Below are positions 3,890 to 61,111 of a stretch of DNA of 64,000 nt, piece after piece. Location of the stretch: contig NW_024704753.1 in NCBI RefSeq assembly GCF_018977255.1, forward strand, positions 4,960,001-5,024,000. Direction: 5' to 3'. Numbering within the stretch: the stretch's first letter is position 1; each line of letters starts with the position of its first letter. This stretch comes from Callorhinchus milii. Taxonomy: Eukaryota. The notes beneath the pieces are model-generated. The model did no database searches. It had not been told where the DNA came from and saw nothing but the letters and a program-made list of their open reading frames with translations. The position numbers and the translations under genes are program-made.

Positions 3890-4815
3890 GTAAAATAATA
3901 GCCTGCATTTTGCTGTGAATAATAAAAAGTAAGTATTTCAGTGTTTAACAGGACTTGCTCCCTGCCGCCACGTCGATTATTTAAAAAAAAAAGTTTTGGC
4001 TTTTTTTGCAGTTATTTGATCCAAATGTACATTTGCTTAGAGTTCAGTGTTATGCGGTATTCTGTGCTGCCTTTGCAACCAAATATTATTGAGCTGATTT
4101 AAGACGGGTACTTTGGTTTTACGTTTTTTAAAACATTAAAGGGTCGCCTAATTGAAATGCTGCAAAGGAACAATAAACACTCAGCGGTTACATAAATGTA
4201 CTATTATTTTCTTCAGTGAGGTGGAATCATTGAGGCAGAAAGACAGCATGCAGGAGACCTGCAAAGTACAGTATGACTTAATTACTTACTGACACCAGTT
4301 GAGTCACTTTGAGAGTCACTGTGACAATGTATACAGTAAGAGTAAATAGTCAGTTTAGTTTATAGTAACTTTAGTCAAAGCCACACTGTCTCAAAAAAGA
4401 CGCTTTTAAATCTGAATGGTCTTTGTTCAAAGTTCACAATGTTACGTTTAGCTAGTTTCAATTTGGGTGAATACGTAAGCTGATTGATCAAAAATGCTTT
4501 TGTCTCTACAGCGCAAGTAAAAAGTTCACTTAGGTTTAGTAAAGGCTAAGGATCAGGTTAACTTTCCCATTATTATCTTAGTATTGGGCATAAAGCAAGT
4601 ATATTAACCAACAGGTTATTGTAAAAGTTTTTTAAGATTAAATAAGACAAACAAATGCAAGGCAATGTAGAAATGTCTACTTTGATAGTGATTTGTAACA
4701 GATTAGGAAAGATGTAAACGTCGCCCTCTTAAGAGAGATCAATTAATTCACTGTAAACTCAGCACTGCATATTGCTAATGTTTACCTGCTACCTTTCCTA
4801 TGATGAGACTTTAAT

Positions 4816-5133
4816 GGAGTCCTGTAGCTCAGTGGTTAGAGCACTCGCTTTGCAAGTGAGAGACCTGAGTTCAATTCCAGGCAGAGGGCGAAACCTTGGG
4901 CAAGTTTCCTTACTCCACACACCTAATAATAATAATCCCTCCAAACCAAAAACAATAATAAATTGGTCATTTTCAATCTACGACTGTTTGTGGGACATTG
5001 CTGTGCGCAATTGGCTGCCGTGTTCGCCCACAAATATACAGTCAATTCACTTTACAGTGTGTTCTGTGAAGCGCTTTGGGACGTCCTCCCGACGTGAAAA
5101 GCGCTATATCAAATGCAAGGATTATTATTATTA
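4816..5133 (+). mobile_element. Full-length tRNA-derived SINE, young short variant
   Basis: Pol III A box TAGCTCAGTGG and B box GTTCAATTCC; TGC in the anticodon-like loop (tRNA-Ala-like); LINE-type 3' stem-loop and (ATT)n tail; near-identical to the copies at 40009 and 60796. Confidence 0.93.
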
Positions 5134-28742: not shown

Positions 28743-28827
28743 GTTTTATATTGAGAGCATTTCATTTTTAAAGGACATTACCACTGTGGAATTATTCTTC
28801 CTCAACACCAAATCTGCCATTTCCAAG
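28743..28827 (+). CDS. FRMD4B: FRMD4B exon 5 (FYIESISFLKDITTVELFFLNTKSAISK)
   Basis: gctgtAG acceptor, GTAAAA donor, 85 nt, phase 2/0. Confidence 0.95.
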
Positions 28828-38648: not shown

Positions 38649-38955
38649 GGAGTCCTGTAGCTCAGTGGTTAGAGCACTCGAGAGACCTGGGTTTGATTCC
38701 GGCAGTGGGCGAAACCGTGGGCAAGTTTCCTTACTCCACACACCTGATAATAATCCCCCGAGAAACAAAATACAAAAGAAATTGGTCACTGCAATCCGCG
38801 ACTGTCTGTGGGACGCTGCCGTGCGCAATTGGCTGCTGCATTTCGCCCACGAATATCCGGTCAATTCGCTTCACGGTGCATTCTGCGAAGCGCTTTGAGA
38901 CGTCTCGAAGACGTGAAGAGCGCTACATCGGATGCGAGGATTATGCTTATCATTA
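38649..38955 (+). mobile_element. SINE copy with GC-shifted sequence
   Basis: Colinear with the family but carries many A/T-to-G/C differences. Confidence 0.9.
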
Positions 38956-39147
38956 GGGGTTTAAATCCAAACTGGTAGCTGAGAGGGATTCGGTGGAGGG
39001 CGGCGGCGGCGGTGGTGGTGGTGGTGGTTGGGCGGAATAACTTACGACAAACTCGAGCACGTGCGTGTCGAGTCTGCGCGGAACGCAGCAGTTTGCAGAC
39101 TCCGGAGGCGAAGTATTTGGGTCGTTTCTTGCAAAAATATTATTAAC

Positions 39148-39490
39148 TCCCACACACACTCCCCTCCTCTCCCCCCCCCACACACACTCCCCTTCTCTCC
39201 TCCCCACCCCCCACACACTCCCCTTCTCTCCTCCCCCCACACACACTCCCCTTCTCTCCTCCCCACACACTCCCCTTCTCTCCTCTCCCCCCCCCACACA
39301 CTCCCCTTCTCTCCTCCCCCCCCCCACACACTCCCCTTTCTCTCTCCCCTCTCCCCTTCTCTCTCCCCTCTCCCCCTTCTCTCTCCCCTCTCCCCTTCCC
39401 TCTCCCCTTTCTCTCTCCCTCTTCACCCCTCTCTCTGGCTGCTCACCCCCCTCTCTTCACCCCCGCCCCCCCTACTATTAACCCCCCCCT
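39148..39490. repeat. Pyrimidine-rich minisatellite, unit about CACACACTCCCCTTCTCTCCT(C)n, grading into (CT/C)-rich sequence
   Basis: Direct tandem repeats; same unit as 43327-44390. Confidence 0.93.
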
Positions 39491-39772
39491 GAACACCGGC
39501 CCCTTTGAACCTTTTGTATTGCTGAAGAGTCGGTGCCCACACAATAACCACCCGCTGTGCCCAGTCTGTGCTCTGTGCCCATTCACTCGCTTCCCTATAA
39601 CTCTGTCTGTCTGTCTGTCTGTCTGTGTGTCTGAGGTTCCCACTGAATTAATATCTGAGAGCCACCGATTGCTTCACTTTGTGTTACAACCCATCCTGTT
39701 TTTTTTAAAAAAAAACACTTTCTGACCCTGCATTTGATTTTTCTCTCCCTCTCTCTCTCCCCCCCACCCCAG

Positions 39773-39795
39773 GAAGCTAAGGGAGATTACACCAG
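39773..39795 (+). CDS. FRMD4B: FRMD4B exon 7, 23-nt microexon (EAKGDYT-S); lies before exon 6 in this sequence
   Basis: Long polypyrimidine tract + ccccAG, then GAAGCTAAGGGAGATTACACCAG, then GTAAGA. Phase 0/2 exactly bridges exon 6 (...ILQ) and exon 8 (S-DESAR). Confidence 0.92.
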
Positions 39796-40008
39796 GTAAG
39801 AAATTACACACTGTTTAAATCTACAGCTCAAATGTTTTATGTGTGTATCGGTGCAGAACGTGGCAATTGCAAATTGGCTGCTGTATATGTTGCCAGGCCT
39901 TTTTTTTTAATGCAGCTTTGAAGTTTGCAACCTGGTTCTTGTCTCGGATCTGTGATCAGTTGTAAAATGAGGCGAGTTACACATCATGTTTTTATGTAAT
40001 TGTCTTCT

Positions 40009-40320
40009 GTCCTGTAGCTCAGTGGTTAGAGCACTCGCTTTGCAAGCGAGAGACCTGAGTTCAATTCCAGGCAGAGGGCGAAACCTTGGGCAAGTTTCCT
40101 TACTCCACACAGAGCCTAATAATAATCCCTCCAAAAACCCAAAACAATAATAAATTGGTCATTTTCAATCCACAACTGTTTGTGGGACATTGCTGTGCGC
40201 AATTGGCTGCCGCGTTCGCCCACAAATATACAGTCAATTCACTTTACAGTGTGTTCTGTGAAGCGCTTTGGGACGTCCTCCCGACGTGAAGAGCGCTATA
40301 TCAAATGCAAGGATTATTAT
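40009..40320 (+). mobile_element. Full-length SINE, young short variant
   Basis: Near-identical to the copies at 4816 and 60796. Confidence 0.93.
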
Positions 40321-42114
40321 CGTCTGTGTTCAGCTTGCTTCTCGTTTTATTTCTCTCTCTCTCATCAGAACTGTAACAATGTCATCCCCGAAAAGTAATG
40401 CAGAGTATTTAATGTACATATATTCTGCCCATAAAAGAAACATATATTTTGTTTATTAAAAAAGAAACCCCGAAAGGTAATGCACGCAGCAAAACGATCA
40501 AGTTCGTCAGCTGTTTGGTGTTTAAGGTCGATTTGCATTGCAGCTTTCTCTCACAGTACACTTGACCGTTCCTGCAATTACTAAGATTCCTGTGTGTGTG
40601 TGTGTGTGTGTGGAGGGGGGGGGGTTGTGGGTGTGTGTTTGCAACGGCTGGTTGAAGCTATATCTTGCTAAATGCCAATGTGTTTAGGAGGAAGGGGGGA
40701 AAGGAAGGGAGACACAGAAATCCTTTGGTTTAAGCTGTCAATACTCACATTTTATGGGTATTGCTGATTTATAAGTGTCTAAAAGCTACTGGCGAAGCGA
40801 TGGAGTGGCATTTAGAATAACTCAGCTGAATGCATGCCCTTTGTAAAGGTCACTAGTAACCTTCAGAATGAAAAGAGCTGATTTCTTGGGTTCCTCAAAA
40901 TGGTTTAAGTATTGTAATTACAGTAGTTTTAAACTGCTTTGCTTTATAGCATGTTTTTTATATAAAAAAAGACCATTATTGCCTTAATTGTACCCTGTTC
41001 ACTTCATCTTTTTTTTCTCAAAAGAAAAAAAGCTTCAGCAAATTATTTTTACGTTTTTAAATGCAACTCCTTCTAATGCTAGGGAGAACAAAAGTGTTTG
41101 AATTTATGTGTGTGTGTGTGTGTGGGAGAGGCTGTCTGTACACAAAGGGAGTGTTTATTTAAAGGTATCAGAAGTAAACTATTTTCGTAAGGATATCATT
41201 TCTTCTTTTTAAACGTTGTCATATCAAAAGCTTGTTTGGGAACTTGTTTGATTTGTTACCATTTGCATCTATTGCTTACAAAACAAATTGGACTAAGGCA
41301 AAAACATTATCCATGAGGAGTGTGCGTCAATCAATGTTTGTTTCAATCCATCCTAAACTAGTGTGTGCCTTTTTTATTAAAAAAAGTATAGTTTCACACA
41401 GAAGTTGTTGCACAATCAACATGTAAAATTGATAATCTGATATGATTTTTGAATATATGAATGACAATGTGTATTTACGTTAGTTAGCAACGGGAAGACA
41501 GTTCTCCTTAGTACAATAGCTGACACCTGATTTTATAAACTTGGCTGGGGTAAAGAGAACCATAGATTGTTGTAACGTAACCTAGTGCAAGTTAAGTCAT
41601 GATAGCTGATAGTCATTGTGAAGTTTATTATTACTGAATACATGAGAACATTCTGGGAAAATAGTTTATTTAAAAGTATCTTATGGACTGCAGAGACAGC
41701 ATATTTTGTAGCCTGTGACCCACTGAACTGGATTTAGATAAGATAACATGCATTTAAAATGTTTTTATTGAAATGCTTCTCATTGTCCTTAAATCTACTC
41801 GGAAATTCGAGATCCATGATACACTCATAAATTATCGAATTCTCTAAACAAAATTTTTGGGGCCCTTTGGTGTATAGTCATAAATGTTTAATAATCCTAA
41901 ACTCCTTAAGCACTTTATCTGGTTGACATTGTTTGTTTTATGAATGTGGTGACATTTCACAGAAATATCATTGAATTTTATCTTCTTTTATCTTCCCTTG
42001 CGAGGTACTTAACCAAAGTGTTGTGGATTCTTCTCATTGTGCTGACTGAGCAAATCGAAGTGCAGAGGCTTAGATTCACATTTCCTCTCTTTTCCTCCCC
42101 TTCCCCCATCTCCC

Positions 42115-42139
42115 NNNNNNNNNNNNNNNNNNNNNNNNN
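42115..42139. other. Assembly gap (25 N)
   Basis: Run of N; single Ns also at 25158, 28459 and 37524. Confidence 0.99.
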
Positions 42140-42469
42140 TAAGATGATTTAAAAGAGAGGTTTGAAGGGCAGGGAGTGGGTGGGTGTTTGGTGGCGTTGC
42201 ACTTACTCTGACACATTGATCCAACGCAGACTGAAGCAACAGCAGTGTGTGGTGGAGGAGGAGGAGGAGGAGAGGGAGGGAGGGAGGGAGGAAGGGCTTT
42301 TATTATCCATTTAAAAAAATAAAAGGGGAAAAAAAAGCTCTCGAGGTACCGCCTTCTTTTTTTTAAAAAAAAAGGCGAGTTTGGCGAAGAAGCCAAAGGA
42401 CGTGTGTCTGAGAGTAAGTCAGGAGCTGCAGTGAGGCTGGAGTTTGTGTCGCTTTGGGAGGTAGTCACC

Positions 42470-42970
42470 CCCTCTCTCTCTCTCTCTCTCCCCTCAGCAA
42501 TACTCTCCCTCTCTCTCCCCTCAGCAATACTCTCCCTCTCTCTCTCTCTCTCCTCAGCAATACTCTCCCTCCTCTCCTCCTCTCTCTCTCTCTCCTCAGC
42601 AATACTCTCCTCTCTCTCTCTCTCCTCAGCAATACTCTCCTCTCTCTCTCTCCCCTCAGCAATACTCTCCCTCTCTCTCTCTCCCCTCAGCAATACTCTC
42701 CCTCTCTCTCTCCCCTCAGCAATACTCTCCCTCTCTCCCCCTCTCTCCCCCTCTCTCTCCCCTCAGCAATACTCTCCCTCTCTCCCCCTCCCCTCAGCAA
42801 TACTCTCCCTCTCTCTCTCCCCTCAGCAATACTCTCCCTCTCCCCCTCTCTCCCTCCTCTCCCTCAGCAATACTCCTCCCCCCCCCACTCCCCCCCTCTC
42901 TCTCCCATCCTCACCCAGAGCTCCAGCAGCAGTGTGTGTGTGTGTGTTGTGTCTCTCTCTCTCTCTCTCT
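42470..42970. repeat. Minisatellite CTCAGCAATACTCTCC+(CT)n, followed by (GT)n and (CT)n, upstream of exon 6
   Basis: About a dozen copies of a constant core with variable CT spacers. Confidence 0.93.
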
Positions 42971-42997
42971 CATGGAGTTTCTCTGTCGCCTCCACAG

Positions 42998-43054
42998 GGC
43001 GACATTGAAGTGAGCAGCGAGACGGTGTTCGAGTTGGGCGCCTACATACTGCAG
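42998..43054 (+). CDS. FRMD4B: FRMD4B exon 6 (GDIEVSSETVFELGAYILQ)
   Basis: tccacAG acceptor, GTTGGT donor, 57 nt, phase 0/0; FERM-M segment; seen at the end of ORF 42404..43072. Confidence 0.94.
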
Positions 43055-43326
43055 GTTGGTCTTCGCATTTGATAGCAAGTCCTGTCCTGTGTGTGTACTA
43101 TATATATATATATGTGTGTGTGTTTATAATGTAATATAATATAGTGTTGTGTTTTGCTAATCTCCGCTGCAATGTGCAAAACCACCCGCTTTTGTTTGAA
43201 ACCAACCGAAGGAGATGAAACTTTCTCCTCTTGTTGCTGCGGTTTTCTTTTTGCTCGAATCCCCTCTCTCTCTCTCTCTCTCGTTCGCTGTCTTGACAGA
43301 GATGGCTATTTTTTTTTGCCTGCACT

Positions 43327-44390
43327 CCCCCCCACACACTCCCCCACACACTCCCCTTCTCTCCCCCACACACACTCCCCCTCCTCTCCCCCCCCACACA
43401 CTCCCCTCCTCTCTCTGTCCCCCCCCCACACACTCCCCTCCTCTCTCTGTCACCCCCCCACACACTCCCCTCTCTCCCCCCCACACACTCCCCTTCTCTC
43501 CTCTCCCCCCCACACACTCCCCTTCTCTCTCTCCCCCCACACACTCCCCTTCTCTCCTCCCCACACACTCCCCTTCTCTCCTCTCCCCCCCCACACACAC
43601 ACTCCCCTTCTCTCCTCCCCCACACTCCCCTCCTCTCCCCCCCCACACACTCCCCTTCTCTCCTCCCCACACACACTCCCCTTCTCTCCTCTCCCCCCCC
43701 CCACACACTCCCCTTCTCTCCTCTCCTCCCCCCCCACACACACTCCCCTTCTCTCCCCCCCCACACACTCCCTTCTCTCCTCTCCCCCCCCACACACTCC
43801 CTTCTCTCCTCTCCCCCCCACACACTCCCCTTCTCTCCCCCCCCACACACTCCCCTTCTCTCCCCCCCACACACTCCCCTTCTCTCCTCCCCACACACAC
43901 TCCCTTCTCCTCTCCCCCCCACACACTCCCCTTCTCTCCTCCCCCCCACACACTCCCTTCTCTCCCCCCACACACTCCCCTTCTCTCCTCTCCTCCCCTC
44001 CCACACACACTCCCTTCTCTCCTCTCCCCCCCCACACACTCCCCTTCTCTCCTCCCCCCCCACACACTCCCTTCTCTCCTCTCCCCCCCCACACACTCCC
44101 CTTCTCTCCTCCCCCCCACACACTCCCCTCCTCTCCCCCCCCCACACACTCCCCTTCTCTCCTCCCCCACACACACTCCCCCTCTCTCTCTCCCCCCACA
44201 CACTCCCCTTCCTCTCTCCCCCCCACACACTCCCCTTCTCTCCTCCCCCCACACACTCCCCTCCTCTCCTCCCCCCCACCACACACTCCCCTCCTCTCCC
44301 CCCCCCACACACTCCCCTCCTCTCCTCTCCCCCCCACACACTGCCCTTCTCTCCCCCCCACACACACTCCCCTTCTCTCTCCCCTCTCAC
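43327..44390. repeat. About 1 kb pyrimidine-rich minisatellite CACACACTCCCCTTCTCTCCT(C)n
   Basis: Tandem array, almost G-free on the + strand. Confidence 0.95.
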
Positions 44391-45154
44391 ACTTCTCTTC
44401 TCTCTGGTGGTAAATATAGGACATTTGTCTCTGTGCTTTTACAGATTGGTAGCCACATGAATGCACATGTTTCTATTCTTTTTGCTCTGCTATTAAGAGT
44501 TAGTGAGCTGTATGCATGCATGGTGGAAGAGAAAAGGTTTGGTGGGGGACTATACAAGAAAATCAGCTTGCAAAGCCGTCAATGTCTGTATATCAGCAGT
44601 GAGCAATAGTGGATTGAGCAGCTGACCATTTAGCAGTGAAATGTTATGTGATGTGATGAAACCTAAACCAGGATAGGGATGCAAATAAGCAATTTTTTTT
44701 CCCCCTCTTAAATGCTGACACACTTTACTTTTATTAAGATGTCATAAGTCCCGGGGTAAAAGCACATCATAGGATCATCGTTGTGTTGTCTGTGTGCGAT
44801 GTGACAGCACATCTTCCAGGTAATGCTGCTGCTAGTGTGAATTACTGCAGTGACGTGTGTTCATCCATTTTATAATGAGCCTTTTGTGTTGGTTCAGTGC
44901 CCAAGAGGATGTTGTCTCGAGAGGAAAACTGTAATACACCAGTGATTAGTTTCCTACATTTCAACCAAATATTGCACATTTACTACAAGAAATTCAGTGC
45001 AATACAATTTACATTTATACAGTACTTTTCCCATCAGGAGGAGTCCCAAAGCACAAATATCTATATTTATATGAGAAAGGATGAATGAATATGAACACTT
45101 ATCTCTGAATTAGTTGGTTTAGGAAACCCCAAAGTTTGAGAGACTCCTCACCTC

Positions 45155-50414: not shown

Positions 50415-50498
50415 TGACGAAAGTGCAAGAGATGATCTAAAGAAACTCCCAGCTCTTCCTACACAAACATTGCAGGAACACCCATCACTTGCATATTG
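50415..50498 (+). CDS. FRMD4B: FRMD4B exon 8 (DESARDDLKKLPALPTQTLQEHPSLAYC)
   Basis: tttccAG acceptor, GTAAGT donor, 84 nt, phase 2/2. Confidence 0.96.
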
Positions 50499-60470: not shown

Positions 60471-60795
60471 TTTCCATGAAAGGTACCAAATGGTGAGAAA
60501 TGACCGAGAGTGAAGATGTACCCTAACCCAGCCTCTGGTACCAAACCCGTGTGAGCAGGACATAGTTTCATATCCTTGCTGTCATCCGCACACATGTGAC
60601 ATTGCATATGAGGCATGACATAAGCGAGTTTATACTACTGGGAGCTGACCTGGACTAATCATTCTGGTTTAGATGAAAAGGGCAGCAGTAAAGAAGAAAA
60701 TGGTAGCTTTGTCAGCACCTTCACTTGGATGAGAGATGGCATTAGACAAATGATAGAGGAGTTAGTTGAATCCACTATTTAGAATTCAAAATTGT

Positions 60796-61111
60796 GGAGT
60801 CCTGTAGCTCAGTGGTTGAGCACTCGCTTTGCAAGCTAGAGACCTGAGTTCAATTCCAGGCAGGGCGAAACCTTGGGCAAGTTTCCTTACTCCACACAGA
60901 GCCTAATAATAATCCCTCCAAAACCAAAAACAATAATAAATTGGTCATTTTCAATCCACGACTGTTTGTGGGACATTGCTGTGCGCAATTGGCTGCCGCG
61001 TTCGCCCACAAATATACAGTCAATTCACTTTACAGTGTGTTCTGTGAAGCGCTTTGGGACGTCCTCCCGACGTGGAAAGCGCTATATCAAATGCAAGGAT
61101 TATTATTATTA
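60796..61111 (+). mobile_element. Full-length SINE, young short variant
   Basis: Near-identical to 40009-40320. Confidence 0.93.

What the first reader, a model, noticed from the sequence alone, without database searches (positions are those of the whole stretch)
39148..44390. FRMD4B exons out of order: 5 - 7 - (gap) - 6 - 8
Seen: exon 7 (EAKGDYTS, 39773-39795) precedes exon 6 (GDIEV...ILQ, 42998-43054) on the same strand. Both have intact splice sites, and by eye I found no second exon 7 between 43055 and 50414. Known: FRMD4 proteins read ...ILQ-EAKGDY..., so exon 6 must precede exon 7. Linear splicing 5-7-6 gives AGG GCG ACA TTG AAG TGA (stop), and 5-6-8 frameshifts; only 5-7-8 stays in frame, losing 19 aa of the FERM-M lobe. 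Inference: the block is bracketed by two arrays of the same minisatellite and contains a 25-N gap, so contig mis-ordering is the likeliest cause. If real, it would be a minisatellite-associated rearrangement giving a deletion isoform or requiring non-linear splicing.
Basis: partly seen in the sequence, partly recalled or inferred. Interest (0 to 1): 0.7.

Follow-up and report, generated by a model that had tools for sequence, protein, structure and literature searches.

The report
Swapped exons are an assembly error
Two exons of the FRMD4B gene stand in the wrong order in this elephant-shark genome sequence, but sequence data from other samples join the DNA in the normal order, so this is an assembly error, likely made when software wrote the two sides of an unclosed gap the wrong way round.

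Summary
In detail: exon 7 (39773-39795) precedes exon 6 (42998-43054), each is single-copy, and a 25-N gap lies between them. It is not biology. Contigs of public runs continue from the left gap edge (42114) straight into 44405 (4 of 4 runs, 2 studies). They reach the right gap edge (42140) straight from 39146 (2 of 4 runs; the other 2 give no cover). No contig bridges the gap. So block X (39147-42114, exon 7) and block Y (42140-44404, exon 6) are swapped, base-exactly, around the Ns. The true order is 5-6-7-8, and the two minisatellite arrays are most likely one array in intron 6, where the gap belongs. Four other public models of this species read 5-6-7-8. The model on a contig of this length replaces exon 7 with a 92-base intronic patch. 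Not seen directly: the junction inside the minisatellite, mRNA junctions, and reads of the assembled animal. Verdict: artefact.

The parts
28743..28827 (+). FRMD4B coding exon 5 (85 nt; numbered from the first coding exon of P0001)
39117..39146 (+). End of upstream block U; in other samples it is followed directly by 42140
   Evidence: loose end before 42140 in X6 and X11 equals these 30 bases
39147..42114 (+). Block X (2,968 bases): minisatellite tail, 3' part of intron 6, exon 7, 5' part of intron 7. Misplaced; belongs after block Y
39149..39363 (.). Short piece of the C/T-rich minisatellite; likely the 3' end of the single intron-6 array
   Evidence: single array inferred
39773..39795 (+). 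FRMD4B exon 7 (23 nt, AG/GT intact)
42115..42139 (.). 25-N gap; no contig bridges it, and its two edges join 44405 and 39146 instead
42140..44404 (+). Block Y (2,265 bases): 3' part of intron 5, exon 6, 5' part of intron 6, long minisatellite. Belongs directly after 39146
42998..43054 (+). FRMD4B exon 6 (57 nt, AG/GT intact)
43327..44404 (.). Long minisatellite (unit about 27 bases, about 38 copies) and its C/T tail; the unresolved gap likely belongs at its end
   Evidence: position of the gap inferred
44405..44434 (+). Start of downstream block D; in other samples it follows 42114 directly
   Evidence: loose end behind 42114 in X6, X11, X4 and X5 equals these 30 bases
44445..44536 (+). 92-nt intronic stretch used by the public model P0121 in place of exon 7; likely a prediction patch, not a real exon
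   Evidence: 5-6-patch-8-9 matches P0121 exactly; RNA support not tested
50415..50498 (+). FRMD4B exon 8 (84 nt)

Best explanation
The exon order is an assembly error: two blocks that flank a 25-N gap are written in swapped order, likely by a gap-filling step that extended both sides into an unresolved minisatellite and pasted the two extensions the wrong way round. The real locus reads U (to 39146), Y (42140-44404, exon 6, minisatellite), X (39147-42114, minisatellite tail, exon 7), D (from 44405). Shown: the junctions U-Y and X-D. Inferred: the junction Y-X inside the array, ordinary 5-6-7-8 splicing to a full FERM domain, and the software cause. Corrected introns are 11,176 bases (intron 5), about 2.0 kb or somewhat less (intron 6) and 8,329 bases (intron 7).
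For:: the 30 loose letters behind 42114 equal window 44405-44434 in 4 of 4 runs (X6 and X11 of study P3; X4 and X5 of study P2). The 30 loose letters before 42140 equal 39117-39146 in 2 of 4 runs (X6, X11; X4 and X5 give no cover there). The joints table is empty; in 4 of 4 runs (X6, X7, X8, X11) the contig on the left edge runs on 780, 318, 780 and 781 letters, and the contig on the right edge has 146, 149, 196 and 148 letters upstream. Placed on the corrected order, 780-781 ends inside the SINE piece that starts at 45150, 146-149 ends at the GGC microsatellite at 38998-39001, and 196 ends at the SINE end near 38951: places where such contigs break. Both gap edges coincide to the base with the breakpoints, with nothing lost or gained, which is what pasting strings in the wrong order gives. 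P0001, P0122, P0123 and P0124 (this species) and 12 of 12 other cartilaginous-fish proteins (P0003-P0014) have exons 6 and 7 contiguous; overall 101 of 124 fetched proteins do. PBJelly treats 25 N as its minimal gap and calls a gap overfilled when both flanks are extended without joining (PMC3504050, passages; PMC6240028, passages).
Against: No read or contig across the minisatellite junction Y-X was seen. No run is known to come from the assembled animal, so a private allele is not formally excluded. The U-Y junction rests on one study. mRNA junctions were not observed in reads. Which program made the gap was not established, and searches found no paper describing swapped flanks. My written prediction of a 3-base overlap at the U-Y junction was wrong: the join has no overlap (note 3).
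Confidence: 0.97

Rival explanations
1. The assembled animal carries a real private allele in which blocks X and Y changed places. It would give a null message or an in-frame isoform without exon 6 (19 residues fewer in FERM-M).
For: The junctions 39146/39147 and 44404/44405 are gap-free in the assembly. No run known to be from that animal was laid. The 5-7-8 splice is open.
Against: The third junction of such a swap is exactly the 25-N gap, and both gap edges fall to the base on the breakpoints; an ordinary sequencing gap would not. None of the 6 samples laid shows a joint across the gap. In the normal allele the bases joined at the two breakpoints (39146 to 42140, 42114 to 44405) are not in the minisatellite, so there is no pair of repeats for unequal exchange.
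Confidence: 0.02
2. The order 5-7-6-8 is the species' real gene, and the normal message is made by non-linear or trans-splicing.
For: Only that public proteins read 6 then 7 while this assembly reads 7 then 6.
Against: Contigs of other samples give the normal genomic junctions, so message and genome agree. Exon-shuffled transcripts are described as mostly circular and non-coding (PMC4711006, start of abstract in a search listing). A search for FRMD4B with 'exon scrambling' found 0 papers.
Confidence: 0.003
3. A second exon 7 (or exon 6) exists in the right place and was collapsed or lost in the gap, so the visible copy is a stray duplicate.
For: Gaps can hide sequence, and the other 25-N gap found is flanked by a direct duplication.
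Against: The own-genome searches give one copy of each region. Both gap edges lead into sequence already in the window, so nothing unknown lies in this gap and one copy of each exon gives the whole gene.
Confidence: 0.007

Closest known systems
Overfilled gap of a long-read gap filler (PBJelly; PMC3504050 passages; PMC9635638 passages; PMC8848313 passages)
   Same: Exactly 25 N, which is PBJelly's minimal gap. Two kilobase-sized pieces that both end in the same repeat and were not merged.
   Different: The passages read describe extension without closure, false duplication and broken gaps, not an exchange of the two extensions. The program used for this genome was not established.
Vertebrate FRMD4B (FERM_N, FERM_M, FERM_C, CUPID; P0001, P0003-P0014, P0081)
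   Same: Window exons and a 262-residue downstream exon are 100% identical to proteins labelled C. milii FRMD4B. In the corrected order the exons encode the ordinary FERM-M lobe.
   Different: No biological difference found. Only the written order and the derived model P0121 differ.
Post-transcriptional exon shuffling (PMC4711006, search listing and start of abstract only)
   Same: Exon order in the protein disagrees with the reference DNA.
   Different: Here the reference is wrong; other samples show collinear DNA.

Membership tests
FRMD4B orthologue | FERM_N, FERM_M, FERM_C and CUPID domains | tested here: met
   All 4 pass their Pfam cut-offs in P0001, whose exons map to the window and the next 20 kb.
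FRMD4B orthologue | Best matches of a region outside the FERM domain are FRMD4B | tested here: met
   The top hits of the long 3' exon are labelled FRMD4B: 100% for this species, 77-83% for sharks and rays.
FRMD4B orthologue | Leiomodin-3 gene as downstream neighbour (neighbourhood recalled from memory) | tested here: inconclusive
   A Tropomodulin-domain exon lies in L004; the paralogue name was not tested.
Overfilled or mis-written gap-filler gap | Placeholder gap of 25 N that is not a measured distance | tested here: met
   25 N; its edges are not neighbours in other samples. Both runs longer than 1 N in 1.144 Mb fetched are 25 long.
Overfilled or mis-written gap-filler gap | Both extensions end in the same unresolved repeat | tested here: met
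   The end of Y and the start of X are the same minisatellite. Whether they truly overlap cannot be told from a tandem array.
Overfilled or mis-written gap-filler gap | Made by PBJelly or a similar program | not tested
   The assembly method was not established.
Minisatellite-mediated genomic rearrangement | Rearranged junctions present in reads | tested here: inconclusive
   The gap junction is absent and the normal junctions are present in the runs laid. The junctions 39146/39147 and 44404/44405 lay outside the stretches laid, and no run of the assembled animal was identified.
Minisatellite-mediated genomic rearrangement | Homologous repeats at both breakpoints of the normal allele | tested here: not met
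   39146 joins 42140 and 42114 joins 44405 with no array between them.
Post-transcriptional exon shuffling or trans-splicing | Transcript order differs from the true genomic order | tested here: not met
   The genomic junctions from contigs give 6 before 7, the same order as the proteins.

The most novel reading that the evidence does not exclude
The assembled elephant shark really carries an allele in which a 2.3-kb and a 3.0-kb block of FRMD4B changed places at a minisatellite, which puts exon 7 before exon 6 and allows only an exon-6-less, in-frame FERM-M variant.
Probability: 0.02. Interest if true: 0.3.

Novelty: not a real feature. Interest (0 to 1): 0.04.

Why it matters
Biologically it does not: the gene is most likely ordinary. 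It matters for curation. The error has likely already produced a wrong public protein (P0121, with a 30-residue intronic peptide where exon 7 belongs, inside FERM-M). Both 25-N gaps met in 1.144 Mb of this genome have a structural oddity beside them (one gap was reached by a lead, not at random), so other findings next to 25-N gaps in this genome should be checked against reads first. If the swap of flanks is a systematic fault of a gap filler, it would be worth a short technical note; that was not shown.

Tried and rejected
Pfam FERM_M search of the own genome: 29 matches, none in the window, because the exons are too short; it served only to place the window. First laying of reads: the SINE at 40009-40320 swamped the tables of joints and loose ends, so only the table of pieces was usable and the call was repeated on a SINE-free stretch. 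Run search: no holder is on record as RNA, so nothing follows on expression. X4 and X5 give no cover on 42140-42243, which is no evidence either way. Search for shorter proteins over the exon 5-9 region: 38 hits, best 77% identical, no transcript-derived protein of this species. One search used exon ends that were off by 1-2 bases for exons 4, 5, 8 and 9; its splice translations are superseded (its junction arithmetic stands). Literature on swapped flanks: one search gave 5 papers (one opened, 'swapped' unrelated), one search gave 11 (one opened, nothing on swaps), one search gave 0. Searches were seen as listings only and are not used. PMC7757076 passages only define overfilling. Survey of gaps: only 2 multi-N gaps in 1.144 Mb, too few to tell whether swaps are systematic. 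Idea of an alternative promoter split by the swap: CpG is high at 38956-39146 (observed/expected 1.39) but not at 42140-42470 (0.53), so it was dropped.

Full report
Verdict. The out-of-order exons are in the sequence as described, but they are an assembly error. Two blocks on either side of a 25-N gap are written in swapped order.

The gene. The window is G000:C12:4960001-5024000. A 262-residue exon 11 kb beyond the window (L002:1261-2046) is 100% identical to two proteins labelled Callorhinchus milii FRMD4B and 77-83% identical to FRMD4B of sharks and rays. P0001 carries FERM_N, FERM_M, FERM_C and CUPID. Its coding exons map to 3728, 18936, 20342, 28089, 28743 (exon 5), 42998 (exon 6), 39773 (exon 7), 50415 (exon 8), 51470, 52385, 53400 and 62600, all on +.

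The observation. Both exons have AG/GT ends and each region is single-copy in the assembly. The gap is 42115-42139; arrays of one minisatellite lie at 39149-39363 and 43327-44392. Splicing 5-7-6 stops at codon 41 and 5-6-8 at codon 48. Splicing 5-7-8 is open and 19 residues short, and 5-6-7-8-9 reproduces P0001 exactly.

Public models. P0001, P0122, P0123 and P0124 of this species read exon 6 then exon 7. P0121, recorded on a contig of the same length as C12, joins exon 5 to 6 and then uses window 44445-44536, a 92-base stretch of the same phase, in place of exon 7 (exact match). This is what a gene predictor does when the true exon is out of reach (inference). P0002 also lacks exon 7, so not every model is informative. 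Of 124 fetched proteins, 101 have exons 6 and 7 contiguous, 13 differ (partial starts or other peptides at the 23-base exon, among them P0002 and P0121) and 10 lack the region; all 12 shark and ray proteins are contiguous.

The decisive test. A run search gave 24 runs. Four runs of about 890 million contig letters each (X6, X7, X8, X11; four samples, one study; kind not on record, but they cover introns) were laid on 39457-42470. In 4 of 4, the contig that reaches 42114 runs on for 318-781 letters, and a different contig starts 146-196 letters before 42140. From these lengths I predicted that 42114 continues near 44400 and that 42140 follows the end of the upstream block (note 3). Laying X6, X11, X4 and X5 on 41600-42243 gave the letters. 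Behind 42114 stand the 30 bases of window 44405-44434 in 4 of 4 runs, from two studies. Before 42140 stand the 30 bases of 39117-39146 in X6 and X11; X4 and X5 have no cover there. No joint crosses the gap. X4 and X5 are only guessed to be RNA; as intron-covering contigs they reflect genomic order either way. My guess of a 3-base overlap was wrong: the join is flush. On the corrected order the contigs of 780-781, 146-149 and 196 extra letters end in a SINE piece, a GGC microsatellite and a SINE end, as short-read contigs should; the 318-letter one ends at 44722 with no obvious cause.

What is really there. U (to 39146), then Y (42140-44404: exon 6 and the long array), then X (39147-42114: array tail and exon 7), then D (from 44405). 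U-Y and X-D are shown. Intron 5 becomes 11,176 bases, intron 6 about 1,976 less any overlap, and intron 7 8,329.

How it likely arose. The unresolved point is the array. A gap filler extends the left contig into it (Y) and the right contig back into it (X), cannot merge them, and leaves a placeholder. PBJelly defines a gap as 25 or more N and calls such cases overfilled (PMC3504050, passages; PMC6240028, passages; PMC9635638, passages). The correct output would be U-Y-N25-X-D; the assembly has U-X-N25-Y-D, each block on the right strand. Reverse-complementing each piece without reversing their order would do this. That step is my inference: the program was not established, and searches found no description of it. 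Supplements were not read.

Rivals. A private allele of the assembled animal is not formally excluded, since no run is known to be from it. It would need the sequencing gap to fall exactly on its third junction with both edges base-exact, and the normal allele has no repeat pair at the breakpoints (2%). Non-linear splicing is unnecessary once genome and protein agree. A hidden second copy is ruled out as far as contigs go, because both gap edges lead into sequence already in the window.

Is it general? It is flanked by a direct duplication of at least 2.7 kb at 98.6% identity, the usual overfill pattern rather than a swap; it was not tested with reads. Two cases, one of them chosen, do not give a rate.

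Score. Not a real feature; interest 0.04. The useful result is the corrected order and the warning that P0121 is likely wrong in its FERM-M lobe.

Noticed in passing
window 44445-44536: The public model P0121 uses this intronic stretch in place of exon 7, which puts a 30-residue hydrophobic peptide into FERM-M; likely an annotation error caused by the swap.
   Followed up: partly
G000:C1:842924-842948 (L057:5424-5448): The only other 25-N gap met. It lies 4.5 kb from a Sprouty reading frame (C1:848455-847460, minus strand) and is flanked by a direct duplication of at least 2.7 kb at 98.6% (837501-840219 against 843498-846187); likely a false duplication.
   Followed up: partly
window 38956-39146: Small CpG-rich patch with a GGC/GGT microsatellite (CpG observed/expected 1.39 against 0.38 for the window), about 0.9 kb upstream of exon 6 in the corrected order; role unknown.
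   Followed up: partly
P0046, P0048, P0069, P0073, P0111, P0119: Several bird, turtle, rodent and paddlefish FRMD4B models also start or carry odd peptides at the 23-base exon 7. The two bird models P0046 and P0069 share a similar short N-terminus joined to exon 8, which may be a real alternative first exon.
   Followed up: no
window 41697, 41724, 41733, 41882, 42021: All four runs differ from the assembly at the same five places in block X: either a different haplotype in the assembled animal or unpolished bases.
   Followed up: no
window 42472-42906: A second C/T-rich minisatellite (unit about 30 bases) just upstream of exon 6.
   Followed up: no
window 4815-5133, 40009-40320, 60795-61111: Three young SINE copies, 96-97% alike, with many older pieces across the window.
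   Followed up: no
L004:1384-4371: The next gene downstream has a Tropomodulin-domain exon and a 519-codon open frame; the name leiomodin-3 is recalled, not tested.
   Followed up: partly
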